Origin: Octopus vulgaris
Lineage: Eukaryota
Reading direction: 5' to 3'
Assembly: GCA_951406725.2 (NCBI GenBank)
Contig: OX597823.1
Location: 15,128,001-15,192,000 of the forward strand
Length of the DNA stretch: 64,000 bases
A model generated the notes under the pieces. That model did not search any database and was not told the DNA's origin. It saw nothing but the letters and a program-made list of their open reading frames with translations. Each line of letters begins with the position of its first letter. Within the stretch, counting starts at the first letter, position 1. The translations under genes were made by a program, and so were the position numbers. Of this stretch, positions 32,862 through 61,346 are shown in pieces.

Positions 32862-32908
<47 letters not shown>

Positions 32909-34765: not shown

Positions 34766-35063
34766 TTGTATGTATGTATGTATGTATGTATGTATGTATG
34801 TATGTATGTATGTATGTATGTATGTATGTATGTATGTATGTATGTATGTATGTATGTATGTATGTATGTATGTATGTATGTATGTATGTATGTATGTATG
34901 TATGTATGTATGTATGTATGTATGTATGTATGTATGTATGTAGTATGTATGTATGTATGTATGTATGTATGTATGTATGTATGTATGTATGTATGTATGT
35001 ATGTATGTATGTATGCATGCATGCATGCATGCATGCATGCATGCATGTATGTATGAATATATG

Positions 35064-35850: not shown

Positions 35851-35987
<137 letters not shown>

Positions 35988-36004
35988 GAGAGAGAGAGAG
36001 AGAG

Positions 36005-36045
<41 letters not shown>

Positions 36046-37588: not shown

Positions 37589-38070
37589 AGTCATTATTCG
37601 TTTTTGTTTCAAGGTTTCTTGCCAATAGAGAAAGAACCGGTTTCTAACCTAGATCCAAGGCTCCTTCATTGCAATTTTAACAACATCAACATGGTATTTC
37701 TGTTTGTATGTATATATATATATATATGTATATGTATGTGTTGATTTTTTATTAGCCACAAGGGACTATACATAGATATTTTTTTTTTTAGTATATATTT
37801 CTTTATTGCCCAGAAGGGGCTAAACATAGAGGGGACAAACAAGGACAGACAAGAGGAATTAAGTCGATTACAGCGACCCCAGTGCTTACCTGGTACTTAA
37901 TTTATGGACCCCGAAAGGTTGAAAGGCAAAGTCGACCTCGGCGGAATTTGAACTCAGAACGTAACGCCAGACGAAATACGGCTACGCATTTCGCCCGGCG
38001 TGCTAACGTTTCTGCCAGCTCGCCGACTTAATATTCACAGACAACCGACACTCTCATACCGCGCGCGCTT

Positions 38071-38153
<83 letters not shown>

Positions 38154-39293
38154 CACTCATTCACCCACGCACACACGCACACACACACGTATACACATAA
38201 CACACATACACTTATCTATAGCTGCACCCCTCAATAAAAATCTCTTAGATTAAACGTAGTGATTTCATCATGCCTACATAGAGGAGAAAGTGTGCTTTTA
38301 TAAGTCAAAGCTCGTAAGAACTCAGGATGTCACTCGAATAACTCGCTAACGCATGTACTTGAAAAGCATTATCAAAACTCTCTCGTTCATTGCTTGATAA
38401 AATATAATACAACAGAGTCATTAAGAGAACCGTATTCATTTATGGAATGTTTCCGTTTCCGCTATTAACAAAGACAATATTTTGGAACTGCAGCATTTTC
38501 GATCCACGTAAGGAAAAAACCTGGAAATCCACTTAAACGCACATTTTCAGTGAGCCTTAAATATTGTCCAAAACAAAATTCTTAATAGCATAGTTGAGAC
38601 TATTAAGGCATCATAGCAAATGGTATTTTTTTAAATGTTCACTTCTTAACATACATGTTGTTTTTTTCAATTTCTATGCAAAGAGTATCATATTTTAAAT
38701 TTTATTTTTTTAAATCTGTATATAAGGAAGAATAAGTCCACAAATTATTTTGGATGAGTTATGATTTATTATGAAATTACTGATAGAAATGATAGTTACT
38801 GATAGAAAATGATAGAAAACTGGGATAACATCATGAGTAAAATATTTCGCGTTAGAAATAAGTGACAGATATCTCAGAGTACAATGAACGATGTCTAGTA
38901 AATATATATTTACTAGAAATTTCTGAATGAAAATATACGGGATAATATGTTAAGAGGTTAAAGATATAATTTGTATTATACACAGAAACATTAAATCAGA
39001 AACATTTCAGAGATAACAGTTTTTTTACATAGACGTTTTTTTTTTTTTAATATCTTTTTCATGTTCCATATTGGGTTGTAGAGGCACCACGTAAGGTCTC
39101 TGTCTTAACATATCTCAAGCAAACTACATTGATGAAACCCATTCCTTTTCTAAATAGACCGACGAGAACCTAAAGAGAAATGAAACACAATACTAGGGGC
39201 AGAGCAATTTATTTTATTTGTGTTGGCGAAACAGAAATACAGACATTTGTGAAAGTCTATTTCTTTCATTTTTTTTTTTTTTTTTCCTTTCAG

Positions 39294-39365
39294 AAATTTG
39301 AAGAACAACGAAATCAAAGAATATCAAGATGGCGCATTTTCATTTCTTTCAAGCATAATTAAAAT
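39294..39365 (+). CDS. LRR exon 15, terminal repeat (NLKNNEIKEYQDGAFSFLSSIIKI)
   Basis: Long poly-T tract cag|72 nt|gtatgt. Confidence 0.9.
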
Positions 39366-40540: not shown

Positions 40541-40707
40541 TGACTTGAGCGGCAATAAAGACATGGTCTGTGGATGTCATTTACCAAAACTTATCGAGCG
40601 TATAAGTGAAACTGACAACAGGAGTGTGACTGTCTTGGGCGACTGTATAGGGGCTGGCACCAACCCAATCAAGTTTACCCATACAGAGAAACCTTCGCAC
40701 TGTATTA
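40541..40707 (+). CDS. LRR C-terminal cap (LRRCT) exon
   Basis: tacag|167 nt|gtaagt, phase 2-1; DLSGNKDMVCGCHLPKLIERISETDNRSVTVLGDCIGAGTNPIKFTHTEKPSHCI has the CxC...C...C pattern. Confidence 0.88.
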
Positions 40708-41459
40708 GTAAGTGAAATCTTCCTTAAATCTGTTGCAATCGTTTCTTCTCTTTATACGATCTACAGAAATTCACAATGAAAATTCCATATATTTAATATA
40801 ATTTCCTCTGTTATATATTATCTCTGTGCCAGTTGGCACAGCATACTTATCAATCAAATATGCGAGTGTTTATACTTTACTCCTTGCATTTTACGTCAAG
40901 ATTTTAGAAATCGTATTTATACTTAGTGTAGTTCTTATCTGTATCTCTCTAACATATATAGATATATTTCGTTTTCAACCTTTATTTTTTCTGATGTTCG
41001 CTTGCTTACGCACTTTTTGAATTAGACAATTACTAGTTACTTAACAAATTTGACTATCCTTCCCTTCCGTAACATTTGTATAATTCCATCTGACTTGAAA
41101 CTTCTCAACTATACTCCAGAGATTATATACATGCATACATGCATGTAAACATGCATGCATGTATACATACAAGCATATATGCATACATGCATGCATACAT
41201 ACATACATACATACATACATACATACATACATACATACATCATACATGCATCATATATACATACATACATACACACATGCATGCATACATACATACATAC
41301 ATACATACCTACATACATACATACACAAATACATACATCATACATACATACATGCATACATACATACATACATACATACATACATACATACATACATACA
41401 TACATACATACAGGCATGCATGCAAGCACACTCACAGTGATTCTCTGTGTATCTTTGTT

Positions 41460-41554
<95 letters not shown>

Positions 41555-42010
41555 GTGTATATATTATCTAGATAACGCTGCAATTTGATAACTTACCAGT
41601 TATAGGTTTTATAAGGGAGGTCACTCTTAAATATAGAATCAATACTTCAGAATTACGTCCCTTCTTGGGATTATTTCAACATATTAATGACTTGATCTGA
41701 CACAGGAATTTAAAATAAAGAGAACAAGCGTCTAACCTGCCTTTTTATGCCTTTCTTATGCTTTTCCAAATTGTATCAGTGATGTAACTGCAACATCCTA
41801 GTGACGTGACTGCAAAGCGAATGTTTACAGACTTCATCTGAAAATTTGTTTATAAGCTTAATTAAGTATTGGCTTCCACACTCACATATGCATTTCATTT
41901 ACTGAAACTACACATTTTCTATGATTTCTATATATGGTACATGTTGAGCTCTGAACTTTTCTTACATTCATGAACTTATACGTACTTATATGTTTCTTTT
42001 TATTGTGCAG

Positions 42011-42096
42011 CTCAAACGATTAATTATGAGAGCATACAGTGCCACGTATGTTCAAAGATCAACTGCACAAATCCGATCAACTGCCAAGGTTCAAAG
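42011..42096 (+). CDS. Ly6/uPAR (LU) domain copy 1, first exon
   Basis: tgcag|86 nt|gtaaac, phase 1-0; TQTINYESIQCHVCSKINCTNPINCQGSK. Confidence 0.85.
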
Positions 42097-42534
42097 GTAA
42101 ACAGATCTTCCTTTCTCACCTTCTTCTATGATACATCACAATCAAAACTGCCTAGATATTGATAGTCTTCTTTGAACTTCATGTAATGTTCCCTTTGTCG
42201 AAAAATATTTCGATATCTATTCAAATCTTTCTGACAATTAAAATCGTCTGCATCATAGTTCATGTGAATTTATTAACGCTTTGCTCTAAAACCATTTTGA
42301 ATTTGTAACTTCTAGAGATAAAATGCAACTTTAACGAATTAAGTTTGTAATTAGTCTCATCAGCCGGTTAAAAACAAAGGTGACTTCCTGTAGTCAGGTC
42401 ATTGAAACACACACACGCATACACACACACATACACACACATACATACATACATACATACATACATACATACATACATACGTACATACATACATACACGT
42501 ACATGCATACACACGTACATACATACATACATAC

Positions 42535-42565
<31 letters not shown>

Positions 42566-42699
42566 CATACATGCATGCATGCATGCATGCATGCATGCAT
42601 ACATACATACATACATACATACATACATACATACATACATACATACATACATACATACATACATACATACATACATACATACATACATACATACATACA

Positions 42700-43090
42700 T
42701 TATTATGGCTGTCCCCTCGTTATCGAGTATGGCCATTGCACGAAGCTTAACTGTTACTGGTGCTGTGATCGAATGTGACTTTTTAGCCCAGCTAAAGATC
42801 TACAATGTCTTGTACAGAATTGGCAGCTAAAACCTTTACCAGTAAAAAGCCGGCTGTAGTTGTAACTGGGCTTCATGTAACTTTGCATGCCGTTTAAGTC
42901 CTCCTGCCGAGTTACACTCTCTTCCACATGCCCGACAGATATGATTAGTATGGTGTGTTACACCACCACCAGTGGCCAGGTTGTCACTCATCTGTCTCGC
43001 TTTATGACTACGAAGATGACTCTTGAGTCCAGCTTTACTGAGGCAGGGTCTTGCACAGACATTGCATGTCAGCATCAAAGGAAGACCCAC
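42700..43090 (-). mobile_element. RTE LINE 3' end with C2H2 zinc fingers
   Basis: CNVCARPCLSKAGLKSHLRSH and CRACGRECNSAGGLKRHAKLH; embedded in (TACA)n. Confidence 0.7.
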
Positions 43091-46000
43091 ACATACATAC
43101 ATACATACATACATACATACATACATACATACATACATACATACATACATACATACATACACACATACATACATACACACACACATACACAAACACACAT
43201 ACATACTTACATGTTTATATATGTATGTAGCTATGTGCCCATGTGTGTGTGTGTGTGTGTCTTCAATTGACTACAAAAGGCTTTCAAGTTTTAAAAAGAT
43301 GCAAAGTCAACCGAGATGCAATTTGAACTCAGAATGCAAAGACGGATAAGATGCCGCTAAGCGTTTAACTCGGTGTGGTAACGATTCTGCCAGTTTGCCG
43401 CCGCCAGTTGATTGCGTAATATTCATTATATTATATTTATTACACTGTTCATGCACACACACACACACACACACATACATATATATATAAACTAAGTACA
43501 ACATAAATTATGATACCGTAGAACACAAATGCCATATTACAGTAAATTGAAATAAGCATGTGATACACCAAAAACAATACCTCAGTTCAATAGAGCAGAT
43601 ATAGAAACAATTGTAGGCTTATATAAATTAACAAAATATTAATAAATTTATAGTTCTCTGTTAAATATCTCCATTTTCTTCTTTATCACACACACATACA
43701 CACATACACACACACACATATTGGTTAATGACTTTATTCCATTCAGTTATACAAATTTTTTTTTTTTGGGGAAGCAGGCTAAGATGCCTACATGTCTAGT
43801 ATTATATTGGCCAAGGTCGGTCACCTCTCTGGTTTGAAGCGACCAGACAGGTTTTACATTTGCCCTGTGTGCGGAGAGAAAAAGGGTCTTGGGTGCAATT
43901 CAGTTAGTGTTTGCAGCGTATAGTTGCTGTTTATGAGGATGTTTTCTCCGTGAGTGTACTTAATCATGATTAAGAAGTAAAATGAAGGCTTGTTCCACAA
44001 TATCTTTTTGGTGAAACATCAAAATAATCGGCTACTGTTTAGAGGATAATTGTGCTTGTGGGCTAAACGATAAATATAGACACTATTCGTGTTGAGGATA
44101 GTGGTGTAGAGGTGTCTAAGCGATGTAATTTGTGATATTTGACTGAATGAATGCAGTGCAGCTGTAAGAATACGAGGTATTCTGGGTTTCTTTTTAATTT
44201 TTACGTAGGATTCGGAGGATCATTACTAAAAGAATGGTTCCATCGATTCGCCTAACTTCCTCTGATGAATCAGGTGTGAAGCACACGTAGAGTCAGGTTT
44301 AGTTAGAACTGATAGTGTTTTGGCCAATAAACTATCTTGAGGTTCCGTATTCACTGGAAGGTATGGGATTTGCGGACTATATAGAATTTTTTCTACTCTA
44401 GGCACAAGGCCTGAAATTTTGGGAGAGAAGGCCAGTCGATTAGAGATCGACCCCAGTATGCAACTGGTACTTAATTTATCGCCCCGAAAGTATGAAAGGC
44501 GAAGTCGACTTCGGCGGAATTTGAACTAAGAACATAAAGACAGACGAAATATCTATTTCTTTACTACCCAAAAGGGGCTAAACACAGAGCGGACAAACAA
44601 GGACAGACAAACGGATTAAGTCGATTACAGCAACCCCAGTGCGTAACTGGTACTTTATCGACCCTGAAAGCATGAAAGGCGTAGTCGACTTCGGCGGAAT
44701 TTGAACTAAGAACGTAAAGACACGATATATCGCTAAGCATTTCGCCCGGCGTGCTAACGTTTCTGCCAGTTCGCCACCTTTTGTGGAGTATATAGATGTC
44801 TGGCAGGGAGTTTAGATAAGACTGGATATTAAAAAGAGATCAAGGGTGTTTGGACTGTCTTTGTCTCAGGTAAGGGTGCCTGAAAAGCATGAAAGAACTT
44901 GATCTAAAAAGTTAATGTCTATAAAAGATTCGGTTTCTGTAACTGCGGCAAAAATATGCGATGAATGTGACAACCAAGAAAAGTTGAGAATACTGAAATT
45001 AGCGAAGACACGAAGGTTTCAGAATAGGCTGAGATGATTTTGTGTTTAATTTTTGGAGATATCGGATTTATTTTATAAATCTACAGTCATGAAATTATGG
45101 TTTAGAAGTCACCTTCGAAACCATGTGGCTTATGATTTAGTCTCCATGTGCTGCAGCTTGGATAAGTGTTTTGGATTATAAACTCACCGGAACTGATCAT
45201 TGTCTTGCGAATAAATTTAGTAGGCGGAAACTGTGCAGAACCCGTTTCATGTGTGTGTGTGCGTGTGTGCTTGCGCGACAAGTGAGAGACAACACGATAA
45301 AGAAACCTAGTAATTACAAACGAGCAACGAAGGCGACAAAACTAACCTCAACAACAACAACAAAAAAATCAATGGCTTAATGTCAAAGAATTCTGTCCCA
45401 TCCGCTAAGGGAACAAGTACATAAGAGGTATAACATTCACTTGAGAGTAAAAATGTAACGATAAAAATATTGCGTGATATTGTGTCAAATTGTGTGGCGT
45501 GTTTTCATGGTGATGTCGGTAATAGAAATTAGCTACACTACAAGAAAAGTAGTCGCATACAAATGCGTAAATATGAGGAAATCCCATGCCGGTTGGAACA
45601 AAGACGGTTTCTGGAAGTGATTTTGACCATATTGACCAATGAACAATCTAACAGAAACCGTTGCAATCCCAAAAAGGAAAGCAGCGGCAACCACAACGTC
45701 AGACATTGGAACGGAGAGGCAATAAAGACTCTTATAAAAGAGCATAAATACAGATGTATACGTCCCTGATTTTGTTGCCTCATAACATCCAGAAAAATGG
45801 ATACTTTTTAACGAAATGTTCTACAAAAACCACTCAGATGCCGTGACTTCAGAGTATATAGAGATTTATGGGGAATAATTTTTCCTATTTTGGCCATTTT
45901 TTAAAACCTAAGAACTATGGGAAAATTCACGCGGTCCGACTTTATCTCGCTTATAACTTCCAGAAAATGGGTATCTTTTAACGAAAGTTTATACAAATAC

Positions 46001-46359
46001 CTTTCAAACAGCAATGATTACGATTCTAAAGCAATTTATGGGGAATATTTTTTCTGAAAGGATGGGGAGAGGAGTTTCGGATCAGGAAGACCAAATGTGT
46101 TAGAGCAACTTTGCTGTGGCGGGATTTTCCCCATTTTTTTTAAACCATAGCCTTCCAAATGATGGGGTTGGGTTGGGTTGGGTGGGGGCATCGTTATATG
46201 AGAAAAAGTTTGAAACTGTTTTACAACCCCCACTCCCTCATCATCCCACTCCGTACCTATTTCGGTGGTGGTGGTGGTGGTGGATGTGGTGGTGGTGGTG
46301 GTGGATGTGGTGGTGGTGTTGATGGTATATGATTTTTGTTTTAATATTTATCGCTGCAG

Positions 46360-46540
46360 GCTGCATGTATGACCACAATAACAAAGCATGATGAACCCAT
46401 GGTTGAAAAAAAATGTAGCACACAGGAAAAATGCGTTGAAGCTGAGAGAGGGAATGTGTCGAATTGCAATAATTGGACTTCTGGCAATTCTTGTGTTACT
46501 TGTTGCCACACAGATTTATGTAACCAGAAGGTTTTCAGAG
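46360..46540 (+). CDS. LU domain copy 1, second exon
   Basis: tgcag|181 nt|gtaagt, phase 0-1; AACMTTITK...KKCSTQEKC...NC...SCVTCCHTDLCNQKVFR, with the LU-diagnostic CCxxDxCN end. Confidence 0.88.
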
Positions 46541-46623
46541 GTAAGTTTTGTTCGTTTTCTGTTTTTCCCCTTTTTTTCTTACAATCGCACTCGAGTTGTT
46601 AGAGTAGTAGTAGTAGCAGTAGC

Positions 46624-46694
<71 letters not shown>

Positions 46695-47015
46695 ACTTGA
46701 TCTGACACAGGAATTTAAAATAAAGAGAACAAGCGTCTAACCTGCCTTTTTATGCCTTTCTTATGCTTTTCCAAATTGTATCAGTGATGTAACTGCAACA
46801 TCCTAGTGACGTGACTGCAAAGCGAATGTTTACAGACTTCATCTGAAAATTTGTTTATAAGCTTAATTAAGTATTGGCTCCCACACTCACATATGCATTT
46901 CATTTACTGAAACTACACATTTTCTATGATTTCTATATATGGTACATGTTGAGCTCTGAACTTTTCTTACATTCATGAACTTATACGTACTTATATGTTT
47001 CTTTTTATTGTGCAG

Positions 47016-47101
47016 CTCAAACGATTAATTTTGAGAGCATACAGTGCCACGTATGTTCAAAGATCAACTGCACAAATCCGATCAACTGCCAAGGTTCAAA
47101 G
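47016..47101 (+). CDS. LU domain copy 2, first exon
   Basis: Near-identical to 42011-42096 (TAT>TTT, Y>F); intact splice sites. Confidence 0.75.
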
Positions 47102-49187
47102 GTAAACAGATCTTCCTTTCTCACCTTCTTCTATGATACATCACAATCAAAACTGCCTAGATATTGATAGTCTTCTTTGAACTTCATGTAATGTTCCCTT
47201 TGTCGAAAAATATTTCGATATCTATTCAAATCTTTCTGACAATTAAAATCGTCTGCATCATAGTTCATGTGAATTTATTAACGCTTTGCTCTAAAACCAT
47301 TTTGAAAGCATGAAAGGCGTAGTCGACTTCGGCGGAATTTGAACTAAGAACGTAAAGACACGATATATCGCTAAGCATTTCGCCCGGCGTGCTAACGTTT
47401 CTGCCAGTTCGCCACCTTTTGTGGAGTATATAGATGTCTGACAGGGAGTTTAGATAAGACTGGATATTAAAAAGAGATCAAGGGTGTTTGGACTGTCTTT
47501 GTCTCAGGTAAGGGTGCCTGAAAAGCATGAAAGAACTTGATCTAAAAAGTTAATGTCTATAAAAGATTCGGTTTCTGTAACTGCGGCAAAAATATGCGAT
47601 GAATGTGACAACCAAGAAAAGTTGAGAATACTGAAATTAGCGAAGACACGAAGGTTTCAGAATAGGCTGAGATGATTTTGTGTTTAATTTTTGGAGATAT
47701 CGGATTTATTTTATAAATCTACAGTCATGAAATTATGGTTTAGAAGTCACCTTCGAAACCATGTGGCTTATGATTTAGTCTCCATGTGCTGCAGCTTGGA
47801 TAAGTGTTTTGGATTATAAACTCACCGGAACTGATCATTGTCTTGCGAATAAATTTAGTAGGCGGAAACTGTGCAGAACCCGTTTCATGTGTGTGTGTGC
47901 GTGTGTGCTTGCGCGACAAGTGAGAGACAACACGATAAAGAAACCTAGTAATTACAAACGAGCAACGAAGGCGACAAAACTAACCTCAACAACAACAACA
48001 AAAAAATCAATGGCTTAATGTCAAAGAATTCTGTCCCATCCGCTAAGGGAACAAGTACATAAGAGGTATAACATTCACTTGAGAGTAAAAATGTAACGAT
48101 AAAAATATTGCGTGATATTGTGTCAAATTGTGTGGCGTGTTTTCATGGTGATGTCGGTAATAGAAATTAGCTACACTACAAGAAAAGTAGTCGCATACAA
48201 ATGCGTAAATATGAGGAAATCCCATGCCGGTTGGAACAAAGACGGTTTCTGGAAGTGATTTTGACCATATTGACCAATGAACAATCTAACAGAAACCGTT
48301 GCAATCCCAAAAAGGAAAGCAGCGGCAACCACAACGTCAGACATTGGAACGGAGAGGCAATAAAGACTCTTGTAAAAGAGCATAAATACAGATGTATACG
48401 TCCCTGATTTTGTTGCCTCATAACATCCAGAAAAATGGATACTTTTAACGAAATGTTCTACAAAAACCACTCAGATGCCGTGACTTCAGAGTATATAGAG
48501 ATTTATGGGGAATAATTTTTCCTATTTTGGCCATTTTTTAAAACTTAAGAACTATGGGAAAATTCACGCGGTCCGACTTTATCTCGCTTATAACTTCCAG
48601 AAAATGGGTATCTTTTAACGAAAGTTTATACAAATACCTTTCAAACAGCAATGATTACGATTCTAAAGCAATTTATGGGGAATATTTTTTCTGAAAGGAT
48701 GGGGAGAGGAGTTTCGGATCAGGAAGACCAAATGTGTTAGAGCAACTTTGCTGTGGCGGGATTTTCCCCATTTTTTTTAAACCATAGCCTTCCAAATGAT
48801 GGGGTTGGGTTGGGTTGGGTGGGGGCATCGTTATATGAGAAAAAGTTTGAAACTGTTTTACAACCCCCACTCCCTCATCATCCCACTCCGTACGTATTTC
48901 GGCCAACTTTCGTCGCACTTCCAAACTAAGGGAGGATCCTTTTCGGTAAAAAAAATAATTCTAATATTTTTAGAGGGAAAAGTGAGTGGTTTAAGGTAGA
49001 TTTGGCTGTTGTTTCTAGCACATCCTATGACAACACTCCACGTTTCTTTATCACTCTGGGGTCAATAAATTAAGTACCAGTTGAACACTTGGGTCGATGT
49101 AATCAAGTCATCAAGTGATCCCCTCAAAACGTCTACCCTTGTAGCAAAACTTGAAACCGTTGTTATTATTATTATTATTATTATTAT

Positions 49188-49233
<46 letters not shown>

Positions 49234-49362
49234 GGTGGTGGTGGTGGTGGTGGTGGTGGTGGTGGTGGTGGTGGTGGTGGTGGTGGTGGTGGTGGTGGTG
49301 GTGGTGGATGTGGTGGTGGTGGTGATGGTATATGATTTTTGTTTTAATATTTATCGCTGCAG

Positions 49363-49543
49363 CCTGCATGTATGACCACAATAACAAAGCATGATGAACC
49401 CATGGTTGAAAAAAAATGTAGCACACAGGAAAAATGCGTTGAAGCTGAGAGAGGGAATGTGTCGAATTGCAATAATTGGACTTCTGGCAATTCTTGTGTT
49501 ACTTGTTGCCACACAGATTTATGTAACCAGAAGGTTTTCAGAG
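49363..49543 (+). CDS. LU domain copy 2, second exon
   Basis: Near-identical to 46360-46540 (GCT>CCT, A>P); intact splice sites. Confidence 0.8.
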
Positions 49544-49603
49544 GTAAGTTTTGTTCGTTTTCTGTTTTTCCCCTTTTTTTCTTACAATCGCACTCGAGTT
49601 GTT

Positions 49604-49605
<2 letters not shown>

Positions 49606-49639
<34 letters not shown>

Positions 49640-49658
49640 CTGCTGCTGCAGCAGCAGC

Positions 49659-49702
<44 letters not shown>

Positions 49703-49722
49703 GAGTAGCTGCTGCTGCTGCT

Positions 49723-49763
<41 letters not shown>

Positions 49764-49786
49764 GCTGCTGCTAGCTAGCTAGCTAG

Positions 49787-49845
<59 letters not shown>

Positions 49846-49865
49846 TGCCGCTAGCTAGCTAGCTG

Positions 49866-49911
<46 letters not shown>

Positions 49912-49933
49912 CAGTAGTAGTAGTAGTAGTAGT

Positions 49934-49977
<44 letters not shown>

Positions 49978-49982
49978 TAGTA
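49606..49982. repeat. (AGC)n/(AGT)n compound microsatellite with short inverted segments
   Basis: Direct reading. Confidence 0.95.
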
Positions 49983-50807
49983 GGGAGAAATCAGTGTAAC
50001 AATGCGCTGCTGCATCCATCATCTGTTGGTGATTGCTTACTCCTGGAGGCTGACACATTTGCACCACCCAGGCAACAGCCCTCCAACCCTAGGGTCTGTT
50101 TGGGCAGTCGTTGCTGGTAAAGGTTTTACAAGGTCGGAGCGCAAATCCTACTTCAACTTCTTTTCGCTGTCTTTTACGACATGCTGAGGAAACGTTATGT
50201 CTCTTCTTTGATATGCCGATCCCTACATAACACAAGAGAAACACGAAATTAAGTGTTTTACTCAAGAACACAACACGCCACCCAAGTCCTAACCACCAGG
50301 CCGTGTGTCAAAGATCCTTTCCGAGTTATATAGACTCAATGACGTTATATAGACTCCGTTGGTCCGTGGCAGGGTTACTGAATTTTTCCAGTTGAGTAAA
50401 CTAGATCAACGTGAAATGAAGTGCTTTCCTCAAGAGCACAACGTAATTCCCGATCCACGAATCGAAACCAGAATCTTGCGATCATCAGTCTGATATATTA
50501 ACCACTAATACGCTCTATTACTGTTACCAAAGCGCAATTACGGCCAGACCCTTCTGAGAAGTGCCGATAATCTCAAGAATCAAGAATTCTTCTTCAAACT
50601 TGCCATTCCATGTAAGGAAAAGGACAGGTTTATTTTCTGGATATAAGAGGCACACATGTTTCTGTCTCAGTAGACGTCATCAGCACAGCAACCGTCCCGC
50701 CTTGTTTCCTGCAGCAAAGGGACTTACACTTTAGAAAAAGAGCGTGTGTATTTATATAAGTATGTATATGTTTGTATATGTATGTATACTTTATATGTAT
50801 GCACATT

Positions 50808-50860
<53 letters not shown>

Positions 50861-50882
50861 TATATATGCATTTATGTATATA

Positions 50883-50917
<35 letters not shown>

Positions 50918-50940
50918 AAGCAAAATGTTTCTAGCCTCAT

Positions 50941-51040
50941 ATACCGAAGGAATTAGAAATGGCAGTCAAAGACCGTTTTTTCCATTTCTATAGAAATGGA
51001 AAAAACGGTCTTTGACTGCCATTTCTAATTCCTTCGGTAT
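50941..51040. repeat. Perfect 100-bp palindrome
   Basis: 50-nt arms, no spacer, centre tcta|taga. Confidence 0.95.
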
Positions 51041-51200
51041 GAGGCGAAACAGCTTGCTGCTAGCCAAATTATTTTTCTTTACTATATACTGAACCTTACA
51101 AAGGTCTTGACAATTATTTTGTCGTATTTACATACCGAAATTTACCGGTAAATAATTGTTGGTTACATGAAAAACCACAGGAAAATTATTTACCATTTTT

Positions 51201-51260
<60 letters not shown>

Positions 51261-51295
51261 CACACGCACACATACTAACACACACACAAACATAA

Positions 51296-51330
<35 letters not shown>

Positions 51331-51503
51331 CATATATATGCACGCACTTTATACAAATATATTTTCATATAATATATACTTATGTATATACATACATATA
51401 AATATATATACAGACATACATAGATATCCATACATATATATGTATATGCATGTATATATATTTATACATGCTTATATGTATATATGTATATGAATATATA
51501 CAT

Positions 51504-51536
<33 letters not shown>

Positions 51537-51557
51537 AACACATATGCATATATGTGC

Positions 51558-51636
<79 letters not shown>

Positions 51637-51639
<3 letters not shown>

Positions 51640-51900
51640 ACCCGCTCTCTTCAACATTACACTAGGACACGTCAAAACAGAAACTGACCACACAAAATTC
51701 AAGAAGTCTTTGGACAAATTCCTTCAAACAGTCCCGGAAAAACCACCCACACCCGGATATGTCTCCGCAAACAATAACTCTCTGCTCGAATGGGCCTCGG
51801 TGCCCAAATCCTGAATTGAAAGACTTTGCCAGGTGGTGCTACTAAGTTAGACATGGCATGGGCCAATACTGGCCAAAACCTTTCTAAGTTATTCGAAGTT
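51637..51900 (+). mobile_element. 3' end of the same LINE family as 14429-16640
   Basis: GPALFNI...[21 protein letters not shown]...NNNSLLE; shared 3'UTR caggtggtgcta.taag.tagacatggc. Confidence 0.85.
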
Positions 51901-52574
51901 ATACATATATGTATATGTACGTATATACATATGTATATATGTATGTACACGCATACATAGCATGCATGAGCTTCGATTTTCGTACGCCAGATTACAAATT
52001 TTTCATCTCTCATACATTACATAATACTTGATCGTGATAATTTATGACCGGGTTCAGGCCATTGGTTTGAGGAACCGTGTCTTGTTAAAATAAAGCAATT
52101 TATTTGGGTGCTTAAACATTCTGTTGCCGCCTTAGATTTGTGATTAGCACACATACGGTTTGCAGCAGATATGAGGTTTGATTTATGTACGGAATGCAGC
52201 AAAGTTTTCCATCTTCTTTGCTATATAGGCATGTGTCTGTGTGCGGGAATATGTAAGTTAGAGGTCCATGAAGCACTCGTCCGTTTTCCACTACTGCAAA
52301 AGCTTGCAACATGGAGTTGTTCTTGCTTCCATTACCTATTCACAGCTAGTGATAGTAACGCTGTAGCCTCAAGAACTAAGTAACAGAATGCAAACTAACC
52401 AATCTTGGACCGAATTGCAGTCCCTTGTCAACACCACAGTCTTTGATTTGTCATTGTGAAGGGAAAAAATTGTATAGAAATCATGCATTTACCAATCGAA
52501 TTAGTTTAATGCCTATAATGTATGTCGTGATTATAATAGCAATGTCTCTGTTTTATTTTTATCGCTATCAACAG

Positions 52575-52654
52575 ACTGGACCAGTTTTCAATTATATTTG
52601 CTTTACAAGAGGCAAGGCAACAAAAATGAAAACCTTGAAACCATATCTAAAGAA
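52575..52654 (+). CDS. Exon of possible SEA-like region (DWTSFQLYLLYKRQGNKNENLETISKE)
   Basis: aacag|80 nt|gtaagt; phase 1-0 fits both neighbours. Confidence 0.8.
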
Positions 52655-52723
52655 GTAAGTGCTTGCCTATCTAAAATCCATTTTGAACTTTCTCTCCCTC
52701 TTTTCTCCCTCTACTTTCCCTCT

Positions 52724-52769
<46 letters not shown>

Positions 52770-52842
52770 CTTTTTGCGTATATAATATACACTCATAGAC
52801 AGACGGACAAACATACACACACACACACACATTAACAATTTC

Positions 52843-53014
52843 AAATTTATATAACGTGCCTTGTATCTCCAAGCAATCTTTCAGGCTCTTTACACATGGT
52901 TAGTCCTATTTTCTTGCGCTTTCTCATGGACATGCGCCTTGGTTTTCAAACAGGACTAACCGTGTGCAATGAGTCCGAAAGGTTGGCTGGAAACACAAGG
53001 CATGTTATATAAAT
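52843..53014. repeat. Foldback/MITE-like hairpin
   Basis: atttatataacgtgcc...ggcatgttatataaat inverted arms. Confidence 0.65.
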
Positions 53015-54694
53015 CTGCCGAATTATCGTTCCTCCATGGCATGAAACTATTGGCTAAATACTGTGTACATTAAATGATATTTATCTTTCACAGGATGGAG
53101 TACTTTTTTTGTTGAGCCAACCTATAACGGAACAATAAACTATGTGTGCGTGTATGTATGTATGTATGTATGTATGTATGTATGTATGTATGTATTATGT
53201 GTGTATGTATGCACAGATGATAGAACAGCATAAATATTTTATGTTAAGTAAAGTATATGACATTGTTGGTAAAAGATAACAGAGACTATGCAATTACGCC
53301 TCATCAGATTTTGAAAATATTTCTACGACTGCATTTGTATTTGTTATTGAGACATTAATTAATCGCATCAAGAATACAGACATGAAAATTATTTGTACTA
53401 TCTTGCAATGGATCTATTTGGATTAGGGATATTGATGCTAGCTTTTGATATTGCTGAGAGATCGTACAATTCACCAAAGTTAAATAAATGCTCTATATAC
53501 AAGTTTCTAAAGATATCATCCATAATTTCCTCTCAAACCCTAGTTTATATCGCATAATTGAAGCCCACTTCAAAGTTGTTAATTTTTGTTGCTCTTCCTT
53601 TTTACCTTAATAACGAATATCTACAATATGCACGTTCGAATAGAATATGAAATCACTCGAAAAATGTAATTAATAAGTTAATAATATAATTGAAAATTAA
53701 ATAAAAAAAGATGGTTCATTATGACTGTCTTCTTTACCTTCTAACGGACAGATCTTGAGCGATGCATTCAATCATGATAACGAAGCCTTCACTAGAACGA
53801 AAAAACTAAATATGTGGAAAAAACTAAATTTAATATTGATGCTAAATTTAGCATCAACTAAGCATAAAAGAACATCCGTTATATATTATAATCCTTCATT
53901 TAATTAATTGATATCAGCAATCATAGCCAAAGTATTCTTCAAACTTCTCCTTTAGCATCTCACCTCAACCACAAACATAGTAAGATTTTCAACAAAATTA
54001 TATTAAAATCCTCTATTCCGCCACACACCATTTTAGAATAATATTTGCCAACTTCAGCCAATTTGAATTAAAATTATCTTCATCTAACCATGATAAACCA
54101 AACTCTAATAGTAGCGGCACCAACAACTATCCTCTAGAAGGCAATTATGACTATATAAAGCATAATAATTGGCATAATGTATTATTGTTAACTCTGATTT
54201 AGCGTCAAACCATACATCGTATTAACGGACAATTTCTTCAAATTTAGTTGTCATGAACATGCGTGCACCTTTCAGTATCAGTATAGGAAATCTAGCACGG
54301 CGTTTTCGAAATGCGACACTCTGAAGTCAGTTATTACGAATTTAGATGTAAAACAGAAAATACTATGCACAGCAACGTCTTACGCCAGCAATGATGTGCC
54401 ATTTTTATTTTTACCCCTGAGGTTCTATGAAATAATACTTGGCTACTTAACCGTCACTTATAATTCAGAACATTAACATACTCTCAATGCATTATCTATC
54501 TTGGGAGGTAACATTTTACTTTCTACACACACAGTCATCTCCATGATACTTAAGCTACCCAATTAACGATTTGGCATGATTTTTAATTGAAATTAATCAG
54601 CGATTTCAATGTCATTGATATTTATCCGGTAAACGTTTTAGATTTTACCTCATCAATATATACTAATTCTTACAAACATATCATTGCCCTGTAA

Positions 54695-55057
54695 TCTTCT
54701 CTCTATATATAAACGGCAGTTTGTCTGTGTGTCTGTTAGGTTGTACCCTCACCCTGACCACGGCTTTCAATCGATTCTGATGAAACTTGACACACACATA
54801 GCCCAATGTCATAATTCAAAACTAACGCAGCGAAAATTTTGAAAAGTTCCCCCAGTTCTGAAAAAAATCGATAAATTCGACATGGGGTCGAGAATCAGAA
54901 AAACAAACCACAGACTGTCTAGGGGACGCAACTCGACCTTTTTAACTAAAAAAAAAATTTACCATCATTTTTTTCCCATTTTTTGGCTATAACTCTCTAA
55001 AAATGCTTTATAGTTATTTCCCTTACAAACCCGAGCAACGCCGGGCGATACTGCTAG
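54695..55057 (+). mobile_element. Non-autonomous Helitron
   Basis: A|TC start; 3' hairpin cccgagcaacgccggg then CTAG|T. Confidence 0.85.
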
Positions 55058-55345
55058 TAACTGATATAAGGATAACACTAAGCAGCACATTTTACAATAA
55101 TATTTGCTTCAGTATTACAAAACACGCGTTAACACATAGACGTAATCATCACATCTAGAGTATTTATGTCGCTTATAGTGTAGTCTGGTGCGTAAGGCGC
55201 AACACTTTATAATGGGGATTATTAGGGGCATTGCGATACTCTGCTCAGCCTAGTGAGTACGTTTCTCCTGTCAGTATACAATCTTTCTTGTATCACGACT
55301 TATGTTATTCCCATAACAATGCGCAGTGACTTGTTATTGGAAGCC

Positions 55346-55730
55346 GGAGGCGCAATGGCCCAGTGGTTAGGGCAGCGGACTCGCGGTCGTAGGATCGCGG
55401 TTTCGATTCCCAGACCGGGCGTTGTGAGTGTTTATTGAGCGAAAACACCTAAAGCTCCACGAGTCTCCGGCAGGGGATGGTGGTGATCCCTGCTGTACTC
55501 TTTCACCACAACTTTCTCTCACTCTTACTTCCTGTTTCTGTTGTACCTGTATTTCAAAGGGCCGGCCTTGTCCCTCTCTGTGTCACGCTGAATATCCCCG
55601 AGAACTACGTTAAGGGTACACGTGTCTGTGGAGTGCTCAGCCACTTACACGTTAATTTCAGGAGCAGGCTGTTCCGTTGATTCGGATCAACCGGAACCCT
55701 CGTCGTCGTAACCGACGGAATGCTTCCATA
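55346..55730 (+). mobile_element. tRNA-derived SINE
   Basis: 11-bp TSD tattggaagcc; A/B boxes. Confidence 0.92.
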
Positions 55731-56137
55731 TATTGGAAGCCAAAATGAAAAGTATTAAAACGCATTATAAGAAGCCTAATACAATCCGTAGGTTCCTCAG
55801 TGACAAGCATAATACGTACAGACCAATTTTGAACGATAGTTAACGTCACACTTTCAAAACAAAGCAGTGACATGATAGGAAATTGTTCCATTGTACCATT
55901 TAATATAACGAACAGAATATTTCTATCCATCTCCATTGTCATGGAACCTCACCCCAAAAAAAAAATTGTTCTCTTCTAAACACCCCCCCCCAAAAAAAAA
56001 CATCTGTTTTATATAAATGAACAAGGTGTTTGTACATTCACAAACTATTATTTGACAAGTTTGAGAAAGGAATGAAAGCGCTAATAATAATGAAGAAATA
56101 AAAAAAATTTTTTTCCAAAATTTTGACGACTCTTTTT

Positions 56138-56193
<56 letters not shown>

Positions 56194-56251
56194 ATATACA
56201 TGTATATATACATGTATATATATACATATATATATATACATATATATATAC

Positions 56252-56298
<47 letters not shown>

Positions 56299-56308
56299 TA
56301 CATGCACA

Positions 56309-56356
<48 letters not shown>

Positions 56357-56670
56357 TATACATACACACACACATATATATATATTTATGTATGTATGTA
56401 TATTATATATTGGATTTTGGGATTTTATTCAAAGGATACTGGAATGTTACATATATACCATTATGCCTATAAAACGGATTTACAACTTCAACACCTATAC
56501 ATATCTTGCATCTTTTTTCTTTCTTCCACCTCACTCTCTATTTTGTATCACATTTAAACTAACTATGAAGGGATATCATTAATTAATATCCTAGAAACAG
56601 CTGTAAGACCTATCTATAAATGCTCTAATATCTCTACAGTCTTGGTCTTTTATCTTATTACGCAAAAATT

Positions 56671-56726
<56 letters not shown>

Positions 56727-57036
56727 GTATTAGTATCTAGAAGGCCAACATGGCAGGTAAGGCTATGTGAGTGTTACGGGAGGACCGTAGTTAGACTCTC
56801 GGTTCGATAATAATATGAGTGCTATCTTTGTGTGAGCATGTATATGTTAAATAAAATGAGACAACAAACCCAAGGCTGTGTGGAATTTATAGGAAAGTTA
56901 GTCTTACAGCTGTTTCTGGTTATATAAGGAATATTCCTAATATCTCAGAAACAGTTGTAAGACTACCTTTCTCTTTATAAAAGCCCTATATATTCCACAA
57001 AGTTTTGGCTTTGTTAACTCCTTTTATTTCACACAC

Positions 57037-57073
<37 letters not shown>

Positions 57074-57087
57074 AACACACACACACA

Positions 57088-57149
<62 letters not shown>

Positions 57150-57162
57150 CTTTCTTTTGCAG

Positions 57163-57215
57163 TTGGAGAAGAACTTTTCAAATATGCCAGGTATCTACAC
57201 AGTCAAGAATTGTGG
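57163..57215 (+). CDS. Exon of possible SEA-like region (LEKNFSNMPGIYTVKNCG)
   Basis: ttgcag|53 nt|gtaagc, phase 0-2. Confidence 0.8.
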
Positions 57216-57819
57216 GTAAGCCAAATCATTTATCCATTCATTTCAGGTTTCTTCCATCTTTTCTCAAAATACACCAGTGATTTTTTTACCGCAGATGTCA
57301 AGTATTGTAGCGCTTAGATATTATAAATGTTAAATATGCTGTATCGTCTACAATAGTACACAATAATAGTGACATTCACTTATACAATACTATAAACATG
57401 CATTCACATTTTCAGCCCAACCTTTCACTGTCCCCTTCATAGAAAAACAACAAATACTCACACACATAGACACACAAAGGAACATACATGCGTACCTACA
57501 CACATATATATATATATATATAGAAATACAAAATGGCTGACGGTTAGTAAGGAGAGACACAAATAAGAAAGAAGAAAACAAAGGACCACTGATGCGGTCA
57601 CAGGAGTGTGACGAAAGAACTCTGGCCGAAATAAGATTAAGATTAATGTAAAAAATAAATAACACTGAAGCAAAATAACACCAAATATATAGTGCGTGAG
57701 TTTTTATTGGCTAAACTGGCAAAATGACCATTCCGAAATATAACAATACCTCTTTCAACACACGACTTCACATAAAAATCTTGCACAACAAATATTTAAA
57801 CGTATATATATATAGGAAT

Positions 57820-58290
57820 GAGGGCGCATGGCTTAGTGGTTAGGGAATTGCATTCACGATCTCATGTCGTGATTTCAAGTCTTTAACTGGGTTGTGCGTT
57901 GTGTGCTTGAGCAAAACACTTCATCTCACGTTGCTCTGCGATCACGTCGATACCTAACGCGTGGTACGCCATACACCTGTTCAGGCAACCTCGATTTGAT
58001 GGAAGGACAGGTGAGCTCAAATGTGACACGAGCATTTGATCACTGGAAACAAACCATTTGTGCATGTCATTTAGCAAAAATCTGAACGCTCATACGTCGT
58101 CTTCGACGGGTGAGTCCATCATAAATATGTATGGGAGGGGTCTCTTCTTGTCAGACGGCAACGCAGTACCTATGACTCTTTCCAGGGTCATAGGCACTAG
58201 TGGTAGTGAGCGAGGAATACATACCGAAGTTGGAGACATGAAACGAATGTAGGGTCCGCAGAAGACACTGAAGGTACCAGACAATGGGTT
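57820..58290 (+). mobile_element. Diverged tRNA-derived SINE
   Basis: gagggcgcatggcttagtggttaggg head; ttgagcaaaacacttcat motif. Confidence 0.65.
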
Positions 58291-58592
58291 TAAATTATGT
58301 GATTGAACATATTACCTATGTATGCTATAGCGAGATTTGAACCCAGAATGCAATGATCTGGAACGAATACAATCTTCTCACTCCAATTTTCCTAGTTCTG
58401 CCAATAAACCGCTCTGAATGTTTCGTCTCTAAAATTTAGATCTCTATTATTATGGTTAAATCATCTTCCTTTTATCCTTCTATATTCCCACATACTAAAA
58501 ACTCTGATGAACGTCATTGAAAAACAGCTTGTTTGTTTGTTTGTTTGTTTGTTTTATTTAGGTTTCTTTTTGTTTTGAAATTCTTGTTTCAG

Positions 58593-58744
58593 TGCGCAGA
58601 GCAAGACTGAAGTATTTATCATTCACTGCCATGTTCCTAAGAATATTACAAAAGAACAAGTTAAAGAGAAGGCTCGTGTTATTTTGCGATCAAAAGCACT
58701 ACGTAGTTTGGGCTTTGGGCCAGATAGCGAATTAAGTGATAAAA
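58593..58744 (+). CDS. Exon of possible SEA-like region (AQSKTEVFIIHCHVPKNITKEQVKEKARVILRSKALRSLGFGPDSELSDK)
   Basis: ttcag|152 nt|gtaagt, phase 2-1, open frame. Confidence 0.82.
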
Positions 58745-59469
58745 GTAAGTGCTGTGTTTTGTATCATCTTTGTCACCTTCACCAAACATCATCACACTCT
58801 CCCCCTTTTCTTCTTCTTCTTCTCCTTCTGCTTCTTCCGTTTCATCTTCCTCCACCTTTTCATCTACTTCTCACCCTCCTCCTTATTATCATCATCATTA
58901 TCATTGTTATTGTCATCGTCATTATCTCGCAAACCGTTACTCCAGCTTCCTGAAGGTTGTGACCGCAATTGTCAGATGATCAGAAATGAAAACTCAGAGC
59001 CATGGTTTCTGAATTTTAAAGCTCTCCTAAAAATATATAAATCATATTACATCCAATATTGATATGGCTTATAATTAGAATTTTATATCTTCTCATTTTT
59101 TATCTCTTCCATGCAAGCGTGGAAATTGACCAATACTTCCTGTCCTACATGCTTATAGCTGTTCGGATTGTAACAGGCTATCTTGATGACGGCTGTGTAA
59201 ATGGTCCAAAACCGAGAATAATGCTTTTCTTGAATGGTTAATGCTGCGCTGATGCAGTCATATATAAGGAAGTCATACCTTTAAACGCAAACCACAATAC
59301 CTATCTGAGTTTTCCCATCGATTTAGTTCATGAGGGAAGAGGCTATATACCTACAACTGTTCCTTCAGGCACACACAGAGATGAAATACTACAAAATCGG
59401 TCTTAGAATATATAATGAATACAGAAAATATGTGAGTACTAGAGGGGAAACACACTGACTAAGACTTTG

Positions 59470-59872
59470 TATCATCATCATTGTTCGACCGTGGTCGAGA
59501 CAATGGAATTTACCATGCTACGCCAGACTTCACGGTCCATCATGGCATTACGGAGGTCCTGTTGCTGGATGCCTGTATCCCTGGAGATTACATCAGGGTA
59601 GGAGAGTGTGCGCCCTCTGGTATTGCGAGTAGATGGCTTCCAGAGGAGAAGAGTAGAAATTACCTCCTTTTCAGCTCTACAACAATGTCCAGCAAATTGG
59701 ACTCTCCTACCTTTCACATAGGTGGTAGTTTCCCATATATTTGCATTTTGGTTGGATGGCGCTTCCACGAGAGATTTTGAGCTCTCATAAGGAGGCGAGT
59801 GTAGGTTCCATCCAACCGCCTCTCAAGCTTCTTTGATAACGTCCAGGTTTCTGAGCCATATAGCAGAATTGG
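59470..59872 (-). mobile_element. RTE-group LINE 3' fragment
   Basis: LLYGSETWT, RRVQFAGHC, MMDREVWR; (TGA)n tail. Confidence 0.88.
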
Positions 59873-60396
59873 TATATAGTAAATTATATATGTGGTTGTG
59901 TCAATAGGAATTACGTACGAGGCTGAGTGTCAACAAAATGGGATTTTAACAAGCCCTTTTTCAAAAAAGACCTTACCATATGCATTAAGTTCCATATTAA
60001 TTGCTGTGTCAGCAGAGATTCACTAAAGCTTTCCGCTTATATTCTCAAAACACATGAACTCAAATTTCGGAGACAGAAAACACTCTTTATCCAGAAAAAT
60101 CAACATCAGCACATCCTTCTTTAATAAGCATATATCTTTCTTATTGAGCGCATGTCTTTGTGTCACTGCCATATATATTCCTATTTCTTACATGCGAAGA
60201 AAAAAAGTAAACTTTTTTTCCCTTAGGCGCAGGAGTGGCTGTGTGGTAAGTAGCTTGCTAACCAACCACATGGTTCCGGGTTCAGTCCCACTGCGTGGCA
60301 CCTTGGGCAAGTGTCTTCTGCTATAGCCCCGGGCCGACCAATACCTTGTGAGTGGATTTGGTAGACGGAAACTGAAAGAAGCCTGTCGTATATATG

Positions 60397-60431
<35 letters not shown>

Positions 60432-61234
60432 TGTGTGTGTCTGTGTTTGTCCCCCTAGCATTGCTTGACAACCGATGCTGGTGTGTTTACGTCCCCGTCA
60501 CTTAGCAGTTCGGCAAAAGAGTCCGATAGAATAAGTACTGGGCTTACAAAGAATAAGTCCCGGGGTCGATTTGCTCGACTAAAGGTGGTGCTCCAGCATG
60601 GCCGCAGTCAAATGACTGAAACAAGTAAAAGAGAGTAAAAAGAGAGTTACATATCCTGCAAAGAAAACGAATATGATTAATCCGGTATGGTGAACCACAT
60701 TTGGTTGAAAAAAAAATAGTGGTTTGGTGACTTCCATTTTTAAGAGTACAACTGACCTTTCTTAACGGAGGCAATTTTTTTTTTTTTTTTTTTGACATAT
60801 TCATAATATTTTATATTATTCTGAGAGTATAACACTCCATATACATCGATAATATATATTTATTCATTGTTGAAACATCCAACACATTCATACTTGTATA
60901 CTACAAACATTTAATATTACAACACATAGTACCATACCTAAGAGTAATGCAACTACTACTACAACTACTACTACAACTACTACAACTACGATATTAATTG
61001 AAACACAAATACCTGTTCACTCAAGTCTATCGATGCTATTGGTGTTCATTCATTTCCTGTGGTGGCCTAATATATATCAATGTCATCTGACATTGTTATG
61101 GTTAATCTCTATTTTTTTTTATAATAGTGTTTACAGATAAAGCATTTTTCTCAATATTCTTGTATTTTCTTGTATATAAATTATACCAATGTATTTTCTA
61201 ATGCATGTACAATATTCATGTTTTATTTATTCAG

Positions 61235-61346
61235 AGTTTTGCGATGAAGACATAACAAAACACAATGGCACGTTTCAGTGGCCAGTGACAAAAATAGGAG
61301 ATACCGTGAGCATCTCGTGTCTTGCACATATAGCAACAAGAAGCTG
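61235..61346 (+). CDS. Hormone-receptor (HRM) domain exon, first half
   Basis: ttcag|112 nt|gttcgt, phase 1-2; KFCDEDITKHNGTFQWPVTKIGDTVSISCLAHIATRS(C) matches the C...WPxT..G......C...ATRxC pattern of adhesion GPCR HRM domains. Confidence 0.88.

What the first reader, a model, noticed from the sequence alone, without database searches (positions are those of the whole stretch)
40541..61346. Unusual ectodomain: LRR array + Ly6/uPAR three-finger domain(s) + SEA-like region + HRM
Seen: the spliced frame after LRRCT encodes an 89-codon, 12-Cys module (IQCHVC...CCHTDLCN), then about 95 aa, then an HRM motif (WPVTKIG...C...ATRS). Known: vertebrate ADGRA2/3 are LRR-Ig-HRM-GAIN-7TM, and LU domains usually occur in secreted or GPI-anchored proteins with 8-10 Cys. 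Inference: a lineage-specific adhesion GPCR with LU in place of Ig and an extra disulfide pair. The SEA-like call rests on a visual strand/helix pattern only.
Basis: partly seen in the sequence, partly recalled or inferred. Interest (0 to 1): 0.75.

Follow-up and report, generated by a model that had tools for sequence, protein, structure and literature searches.

The report
Octopus adhesion receptor with three-finger domain
This is an octopus cell-surface adhesion receptor whose outer part strings together leucine-rich repeats, a three-finger (Ly6) domain and a SEA domain; the layout is real and shared with other molluscs, and three-finger adhesion receptors have already been reported in molluscs and starfish.

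Summary
Nine GT-AG exons (40541-61346) splice without stops into LRRCT, two 89-codon 12-Cys modules, a 95-codon domain and the start of an HRM. The result matches an Octopus vulgaris protein letter for letter. Full-length models add GPS (HL|TSFAIL) and 7tm_2. In an AlphaFold model the Cys module matches LU folds (Prod1 Z 7.5, GPIHBP1 Z 6.8). The 95-aa domain is ferredoxin-like and matches the Gpr126 SEA (Z 8.8, tied with unrelated folds).

The interpretation needs three corrections. The published nearest human receptors are ADGRG1-6, not ADGRA. The layout also occurs in Argonauta and a gastropod. Six-disulfide LU domains are already known.

Most of this is in print. The O. bimaculoides orthologue carries LRR, LU, HRM, GPS and 7TM annotations in a 2019 supplement, and LU-bearing GPCRs are reported in molluscs, arthropods and starfish. 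I did not find the SEA assignment in print. The second LU copy is a roughly 99.7%-identical tandem duplication, either a polymorphic copy-number variant or a haplotype artefact. Function is inferred, not shown.

The parts
2089..39365 (+). Array of 15 single-repeat LRR exons (72 or 69 nt, phase 2-2): 2089, 3696, 4452, 7033, 8151, 10296, 14159, 17447, 20580, 24542, 25030, 25643, 26802, 28918, 39294. The signal peptide, LRRNT and first LRRs lie upstream of the window.
   Evidence: the six O. vulgaris models use 11-13 of the 15
40541..40707 (+). Last LRR strand and LRRCT exon
42011..42096 (+). LU copy 1, exon A (4 Cys; Tyr variant)
46360..46540 (+). LU copy 1, exon B (8 Cys; Ala variant)
47016..47101 (+). 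LU copy 2, exon A (Phe variant)
49363..49543 (+). LU copy 2, exon B (Pro variant)
41689..49628 (+). Tandem duplication of the two-exon LU module (phase 1 to phase 1, so the frame is kept). Copy 1 starts at 41689, copy 2 at 46694 behind a (TAG)n run. Shared blocks are 99.7%, 99.7% and 97.5% identical. Copy 2 lacks 42301-44665 and has an extra 48902-49267.
52575..52654 (+). SEA-like domain, exon 1 (strand 1, helix 1)
57163..57215 (+). SEA-like domain, exon 2
58593..58744 (+). SEA-like domain, exon 3
61235..61346 (+). First exon of the HRM (HormR) domain; GAIN, GPS and 7TM follow downstream of the window
   Evidence: orthologue Gene3D HRM hit; Pfam HRM in paralogues E 0.0097 and 0.018, below cut-off

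Best explanation
An ADGRG-type (GPR126/GPR64-like) adhesion GPCR of a molluscan subfamily with the layout SP-LRR-LRRCT-LU(12 Cys)-SEA-HRM-GAIN/GPS-7TM, expanded in octopods. Shown or modelled here: exon structure, domain order, LU and ferredoxin/SEA folds (predicted models), intact GPS consensus, and conservation across cephalopods and a gastropod. Inferred from known aGPCR biology: it self-cleaves at HL|T in the GAIN domain and the halves stay associated. The LRR solenoid plus LU domain form the distal ligand-binding head for a cell-surface or matrix partner. The SEA, which lacks the GSVVV and furin motifs in the strand 2-3 loop, is an uncleaved spacer that passes force or conformation on to HRM-GAIN. 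Binding or tension then exposes the TSFAILTDV tethered agonist to the 7TM. LRR-exon choice and LU copy number would tune the reach of the head. The second LU copy is a very recent duplication.
For: Exact match to database models and in-frame splicing. GPS and 7tm_2. HL|T motif found in 15 of 17 family proteins examined; the two misses were not inspected. The only rows among the top 50 that cover residues 8-91 alone are LU proteins: Prod1 Z 7.5, rmsd 2.5, 71 aligned; GPIHBP1 Z 6.8, rmsd 2.8, 73 aligned. Foldseek gives SLURP-2 prob 1.00, TMt 0.63, E 0.028. The SEA part matches Gpr126 6v55 residues 373-506 at Z 8.8, rmsd 3.6, 89 aligned, and a mouse protease SEA (2e7v) at Z 8.1. The Argonauta relative hits Pfam SEA at E 0.013 and aligns through this region. 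The best GAIN-7TM hits in the PDB are ADGRG2 and ADGRG6. The orthologue lies in the octopus-expanded group 3, whose nearest human sequences are ADGRG1-6. Two relatives are single long ORFs on 4.0-4.8 kb Logan contigs, which implies spliced mRNA (inference).
Against: No ligand, cleavage or signalling data. The SEA Z-scores are tied with unrelated ferredoxin folds (MscS Z 9.3, PheRS Z 9.1), and the Pfam SEA hit is below its cut-off. No Foldseek hit reached E 0.001. The Pfam LU-clan score is just under cut-off (Toxin_TOLIP 20.6 vs 21.2 bits). No RNA reads were laid on this gene's own junctions. My tree has no vertebrate rows, so ADGRG affinity rests on the published tree and the PDB ranking, and the PDB may lack ADGRA 7TM chains.
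Confidence: 0.82

Rival explanations
1. An ADGRA2/3 derivative in which LU replaced Ig; it would act as a Wnt co-receptor scaffold as ADGRA2 does (recalled).
For: LRR N-terminus plus HRM-GAIN; RefSeq names the O. bimaculoides orthologue 'adhesion G protein-coupled receptor A3'.
Against: The published nearest human sequences are six ADGRG and no ADGRA. Most named full-length paralogues are called G6/GPR126-like. A SEA directly before HormR is the GPR126 arrangement.
Confidence: 0.08
2. The second LU copy is an assembly artefact (two haplotypes laid in tandem), so the real protein has one LU.
For: Copies are about 99.7% identical including introns. O. sinensis (4 of 4 models) and O. bimaculoides have one LU. 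In 3 of 4 runs (X2, X4, X5) one contig runs 166-168 letters upstream through the junction. X2 carries copy 2's short intron together with copy 1's alleles, so the short intron exists as a single-copy allele.
Against: In X1 the contig starts exactly at the junction base 46694 and mixes alleles of both copies, as expected if two upstream contexts exist in the reads. X1 may be the assembly's own source. Three of six O. vulgaris models hold two LUs, but they are built on this assembly. Another family fragment (P0022) also shows tandem LUs.
Confidence: 0.35
3. The 95-aa domain is a generic ferredoxin-like fold, not a SEA homologue.
For: Top VIA rows include MscS and PheRS domains tied with Gpr126; no Atlas hit; no Pfam SEA hit for this protein.
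Against: Position directly before HRM as in GPR126; Pfam SEA E 0.013 in the aligned Argonauta region; four SEA-containing entries among the top 50 rows (6v55, 2e7v, 9nrc, 1ivz).
Confidence: 0.15

Closest known systems
Octopus group-3 adhesion GPCRs (Ritschard et al. 2019, PMC6408891); orthologue Ocbimv22016967m / A0A0L8HDZ7
   Same: Same clade. The supplement lists LRR, CDD LU 371-447 (E 6e-8), HRM, GPS and 7tmB2_Adhesion for the orthologue.
   Different: The main text has 0 occurrences of 'Ly6'. The supplement has no SEA annotation and only 2 LU-type rows. This O. vulgaris assembly has two LU copies.
LU-containing GPCR-like proteins of molluscs, arthropods and echinoderms (Paramonov et al. 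2026, PMC13719153; starfish LyAr2, annotated G2-like, and XP_033635539.1, G6-like; PMC11595613, PMC9410279)
   Same: An LU domain in the ectodomain of an adhesion-type 7TM protein; the Fig. 2 legend lists GPS, LRR and VWC among its domains.
   Different: No SEA mentioned (0 occurrences of 'SEA domain'). The figure and supplements could not be read, so which mollusc protein they show, and its domain order, is unknown.
ADGRG6/GPR126 (Leon et al. 2020, PMC6954182)
   Same: SEA-HormR-GAIN-7TM stack; structural match of the SEA; among the best GAIN-7TM PDB hits.
   Different: Its head is CUB-PTX instead of LRR-LU; the human SEA is furin-cleaved, and no such site lies in the octopus strand 2-3 loop.
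ADGRA2/ADGRA3 (GPR124/125; architecture recalled)
   Same: N-terminal LRR array, HRM, GAIN, 7TM.
   Different: No Ig domain here; LU+SEA instead; 7TM affinity is to ADGRG.
LYPD6-type / Lystar5 LU domains
   Same: Three-finger fold with extra finger disulfides; Lystar5 has six; weak Pfam UPAR_LY6_2 hit E 0.093.
   Different: Those are stand-alone, mostly GPI-anchored or secreted proteins; here the LU is internal to a receptor.

Membership tests
Adhesion GPCR | Secretin-like/adhesion 7TM | tested here: met
   7tm_2 E 4e-29 in the full-length models that contain the window's exons
Adhesion GPCR | GAIN domain with GPS motif (HL|T/S) | tested here: met
   Pfam GPS E 4e-14; CSCNHL|TSFAIL; Pfam GAIN at cut-off in paralogue P0037
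Adhesion GPCR | Autoproteolysis and tethered-agonist signalling | not testable with these tools
   Needs expression and assays
Ly6/uPAR (LU) domain | Cys pattern CxxC...CC-x4-CN with four core disulfides | tested here: met
   12 Cys; 22 of 25 full-length family LU stretches have 12 and 3 have 11 (partial stretches and stand-alone LU proteins left out). Connectivity was not read from the model.
Ly6/uPAR (LU) domain | Three-finger beta fold | tested here: met
   AF2 mean pLDDT 80 with 30 family rows and no stand-alone LU proteins; Prod1 Z 7.5, GPIHBP1 Z 6.8; SLURP-2 and uPAR by Foldseek, E 0.028 and 0.055. Z is moderate, as for a small domain.
SEA domain | Ferredoxin-like beta-alpha-beta-beta-alpha-beta fold | tested here: met
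   Secondary structure and pLDDT 68-89; Z 8-9 to ferredoxin-like domains including the Gpr126 SEA
SEA domain | Sequence homology to the SEA family | tested here: inconclusive
   No Pfam SEA hit here; E 0.013, below cut-off, in Argonauta P0036
SEA domain (cleaved type) | GSVVV autoproteolysis motif or furin site in the strand 2-3 loop | tested here: not met
   The loop reads KNCGAQSKTEVF; motifs as given in PMC6954182
ADGRA subfamily | Ig domain between LRR and HRM (recalled) | tested here: not met
   The interval is filled by LU and a ferredoxin-like domain
ADGRG subfamily | 7TM phylogeny with ADGRG1-6 | tested here: inconclusive
   Supported by the published table and PDB ranking; my own tree lacks vertebrate rows

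The most novel reading that the evidence does not exclude
LRR-LU-SEA-HRM-GAIN-7TM is the ancestral bilaterian form of the ADGRG receptors. It is kept in molluscs and perhaps echinoderms (starfish LyAr2 is 1113 aa with LU at 224-305; P0025 is 1155 aa with LU at 232-315), while vertebrate GPR126 kept the SEA-HormR-GAIN stack and swapped the head for CUB-PTX. In octopus this head is still diversifying by paralogue expansion, LRR-exon choice and polymorphic LU duplication, giving a variable recognition repertoire in nerve cord and skin.
Probability: 0.3. Interest if true: 0.55.

Novelty: new member of a known kind. Interest (0 to 1): 0.3.

Why it matters
The octopus-expanded adhesion GPCRs were described mainly by their 7TM, GPS and LRR content. 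Resolving the ectodomain into LRR-LU-SEA-HRM, and finding it in Argonauta and a gastropod, gives domain boundaries for ligand screens and ties the family to GPR126 through a shared SEA-HormR-GAIN stack. That bears on where the vertebrate ADGRG ectodomain came from. The headline surprise, an LU domain inside an adhesion GPCR, is already published, so this is a refinement and not a new system.

Tried and rejected
No whole genome was held, so the downstream exons were taken from database models. ESM Atlas gave only leads under 0.8 for the LU and nothing usable for the SEA. The first AF2 model (3 rows) left the LU unfolded (pLDDT under 50); 30 rows fixed this. Foldseek had no hit at E 0.001 or better. 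A word search with the gastropod region found only itself and one unnamed relative among 1372 candidates. The profile search (39 hits of 1.84 billion) showed no echinoderm or arthropod 7TM protein among the 20 hits whose names I looked up; this is weak evidence, so the range beyond molluscs is untested. No useful RNA run was found for the region: the six RNA holders share 0.05-0.06 of the words and are metagenomes. The LU exon junctions were therefore not checked against reads. Contig depth has no single-copy baseline and was not used for copy number. The supplements and figures of PMC13719153 could not be read and may show this very family. Earlier scan findings: none returned. Paper searches for a SEA description of this family found none; the library lacks most subscription papers.
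Full report
Observation. Nine exons with AG/GT ends, 40541-61346, join into 365 codons without a stop and are contained letter for letter in P0001, an Octopus vulgaris model named after LOC115215701. The order is LRRCT, two 89-codon modules with 12 Cys each, a 95-codon domain on three exons, and the first HRM exon. Fifteen single-repeat LRR exons lie upstream. The full-length models carry LRRNT, LRRs, GPS (E 4e-14) and 7tm_2 (E 4e-29), with the cleavage consensus CSCNHL|TSFAILTDV intact. The third, RNA joining of these exons, was not tested directly.

The Cys module. Pfam gives only sub-threshold LU-clan hits. An AlphaFold model of LU+SEA from 30 family rows, with no stand-alone LU proteins included, reached mean pLDDT 80. 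Among the top 50 VIA rows, the only two that cover residues 8-91 alone are LU proteins: Prod1 (Z 7.5, rmsd 2.5, 71 aligned) and GPIHBP1 (Z 6.8, rmsd 2.8, 73 aligned). Foldseek adds SLURP-2 and uPAR at weak E-values, 0.028 and 0.055. Twelve Cys is the family norm: 22 of 25 full stretches, leaving out partial stretches and stand-alone LU proteins. It is not exceptional for LU domains. PMC9410279 (passages read) states that many members have one to three extra finger disulfides and that starfish Lystar5 has six.

The 95-aa domain. It folds as beta-alpha-beta-beta-alpha-beta even from three rows. It matches zebrafish Gpr126 residues 373-506 (Z 8.8, rmsd 3.6, 89 aligned) and three other SEA-containing entries, but these are tied with unrelated ferredoxin-like domains such as MscS (Z 9.3). 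Two things tip it to SEA. It sits directly before HormR, as in Gpr126 (PMC6954182, passages read). The aligned region of the Argonauta relative hits Pfam SEA at E 0.013, below cut-off. The GSVVV and furin motifs are absent from the strand 2-3 loop, so it is probably uncleaved (inference).

Family and range. A profile of LU+SEA found 39 representatives among 1.84 billion. Of the 20 whose names I looked up, 13 are Octopus, 1 Argonauta hians, 1 Nucella lapillus, 3 LU-only proteins of other invertebrates, and 2 unnamed. The Nucella protein P0045 (E 9e-5) and an unnamed relative P0060 have LRR, a 12-Cys LU-like stretch, an alignable SEA-like region, HRM-like Cys/Trp, GPS and 7TM. The layout therefore predates the split of gastropods and cephalopods (inference). 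P0025 and P0060 are single long ORFs on Logan contigs of 4.0-4.8 kb, which implies spliced mRNA joining these domains in relatives (inference). An unrooted 12-row tree shows several octopod paralogue pairs with this gene and its orthologues as one branch. The best GAIN-7TM PDB matches are ADGRG2 and ADGRG6.

What is in print. Ritschard 2019 (PMC6408891; passages and supplement searches) describes an octopus-expanded adhesion group 3 with LRRs in 5 of 22 sequences. Its nearest human sequences are ADGRG1-6, with no ADGRA row. The O. bimaculoides orthologue belongs to group 3. Its values are low throughout and highest in axial nerve cord (0.25) and posterior salivary gland (0.18), units as in the table; a paralogue peaks in skin. 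Its InterProScan rows already include CDD LU 371-447, HRM, GPS and adhesion 7TM (30 of 31 rows seen), and the file has no SEA entry. Paramonov 2026 (PMC13719153; parts 1-3 of 4 read, figures and supplements unavailable) reports LU-bearing GPCRs in molluscs, arthropods and echinoderms, with GPS, LRR and VWC in the legend. The starfish examples are annotated G2-like and G6-like (PMC11595613, passages and supplement search). Five searches found no description of the SEA in this family.

The second LU. It is a tandem duplication starting at 41689 and 46694. The large shared blocks are 99.7% identical, there is one amino-acid change in each exon, and 2.36 kb of intron is missing from copy 2. O. sinensis and O. 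bimaculoides models have one LU. Of four runs laid on 46661-47400, X1's contig starts exactly at 46694 and mixes alleles of both copies, which suggests that two upstream contexts exist in those reads; X1 may be the assembly's own source. X2, X4 and X5 run on 166-168 letters upstream as one contig, and X2 pairs copy 2's short intron with copy 1's alleles. Contigs show presence, not absence. I put a real, polymorphic duplication at about 65% and a haplotype artefact at about 35%.

Mechanism (inferred from aGPCR biology, PMC6954182). The receptor is cleaved at the GPS and stays associated. The LRR+LU head binds a cell-surface or matrix partner. The uncleaved SEA and the HRM pass force or conformation to GAIN, and the tethered agonist activates the 7TM. 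The six O. vulgaris models differ in LRR exon use (11-13 of 15) and LU number, which would change the reach of the head if the isoforms are real. No ligand or signalling step is shown.

Verdict. The feature is real and well observed. It is a member of a molluscan LRR-LU-SEA adhesion GPCR subfamily with ADGRG affinity, not an ADGRA variant and not octopus-only. The LU-in-aGPCR idea is published; the SEA assignment, the conserved full layout and the LU duplication are modest additions. Interest 0.3.

Noticed in passing
window 14159-28989: The LRR exons here alternate between two types (..DDSWQHLQNL.. and ..ESSFKNL..) with 79-92% identical flanking introns, i.e. serial duplication of a two-exon unit. 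Database models use different subsets; exon 24542-24613 is in none of the six O. vulgaris models. O. sinensis isoforms range from 1250 to 1394 aa.
   Followed up: partly
window 21232-22394: 354-bp intronic tandem repeat, 3.3 copies, 99% identical, next to an inverted 318-bp copy at 20917-21233.
   Followed up: no
P0012 (O. sinensis paralogue), between LU and SEA: An extra Cys-rich insert of about 37 aa that looks like a VWC/FnI-type module (name recalled, not tested). PMC13719153 lists VWC in its Fig. 2 legend.
   Followed up: no
P0015 residues 1203-1277: [quoted passage not shown]
   Followed up: partly
P0022; P0013, P0018, P0052: P0022 holds tandem near-identical LU stretches; P0013, P0018 and P0052 show a second partial SEA-like stretch after the HRM. 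Internal duplications recur in the family or in its gene models.
   Followed up: no
window 57163-57215 and 58593-58744: Octopus members have two Cys in the SEA-like domain (KNCG and IHC); the Argonauta, gastropod and unnamed relatives lack the first. A disulfide across the loop that is cleaved in other SEA domains is possible but was not checked in the model.
   Followed up: no
window 59481-59929 (-), 39707-40228 (-), 19061-20106 (+): ORF fragments resembling LINE reverse-transcriptase ends and a mariner-type transposase (resemblance recalled, output; not searched).
   Followed up: no
P0042: A model with a SEA-like plus HRM-like stretch followed by ankyrin repeats; possibly a chimeric gene model.
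   Followed up: no
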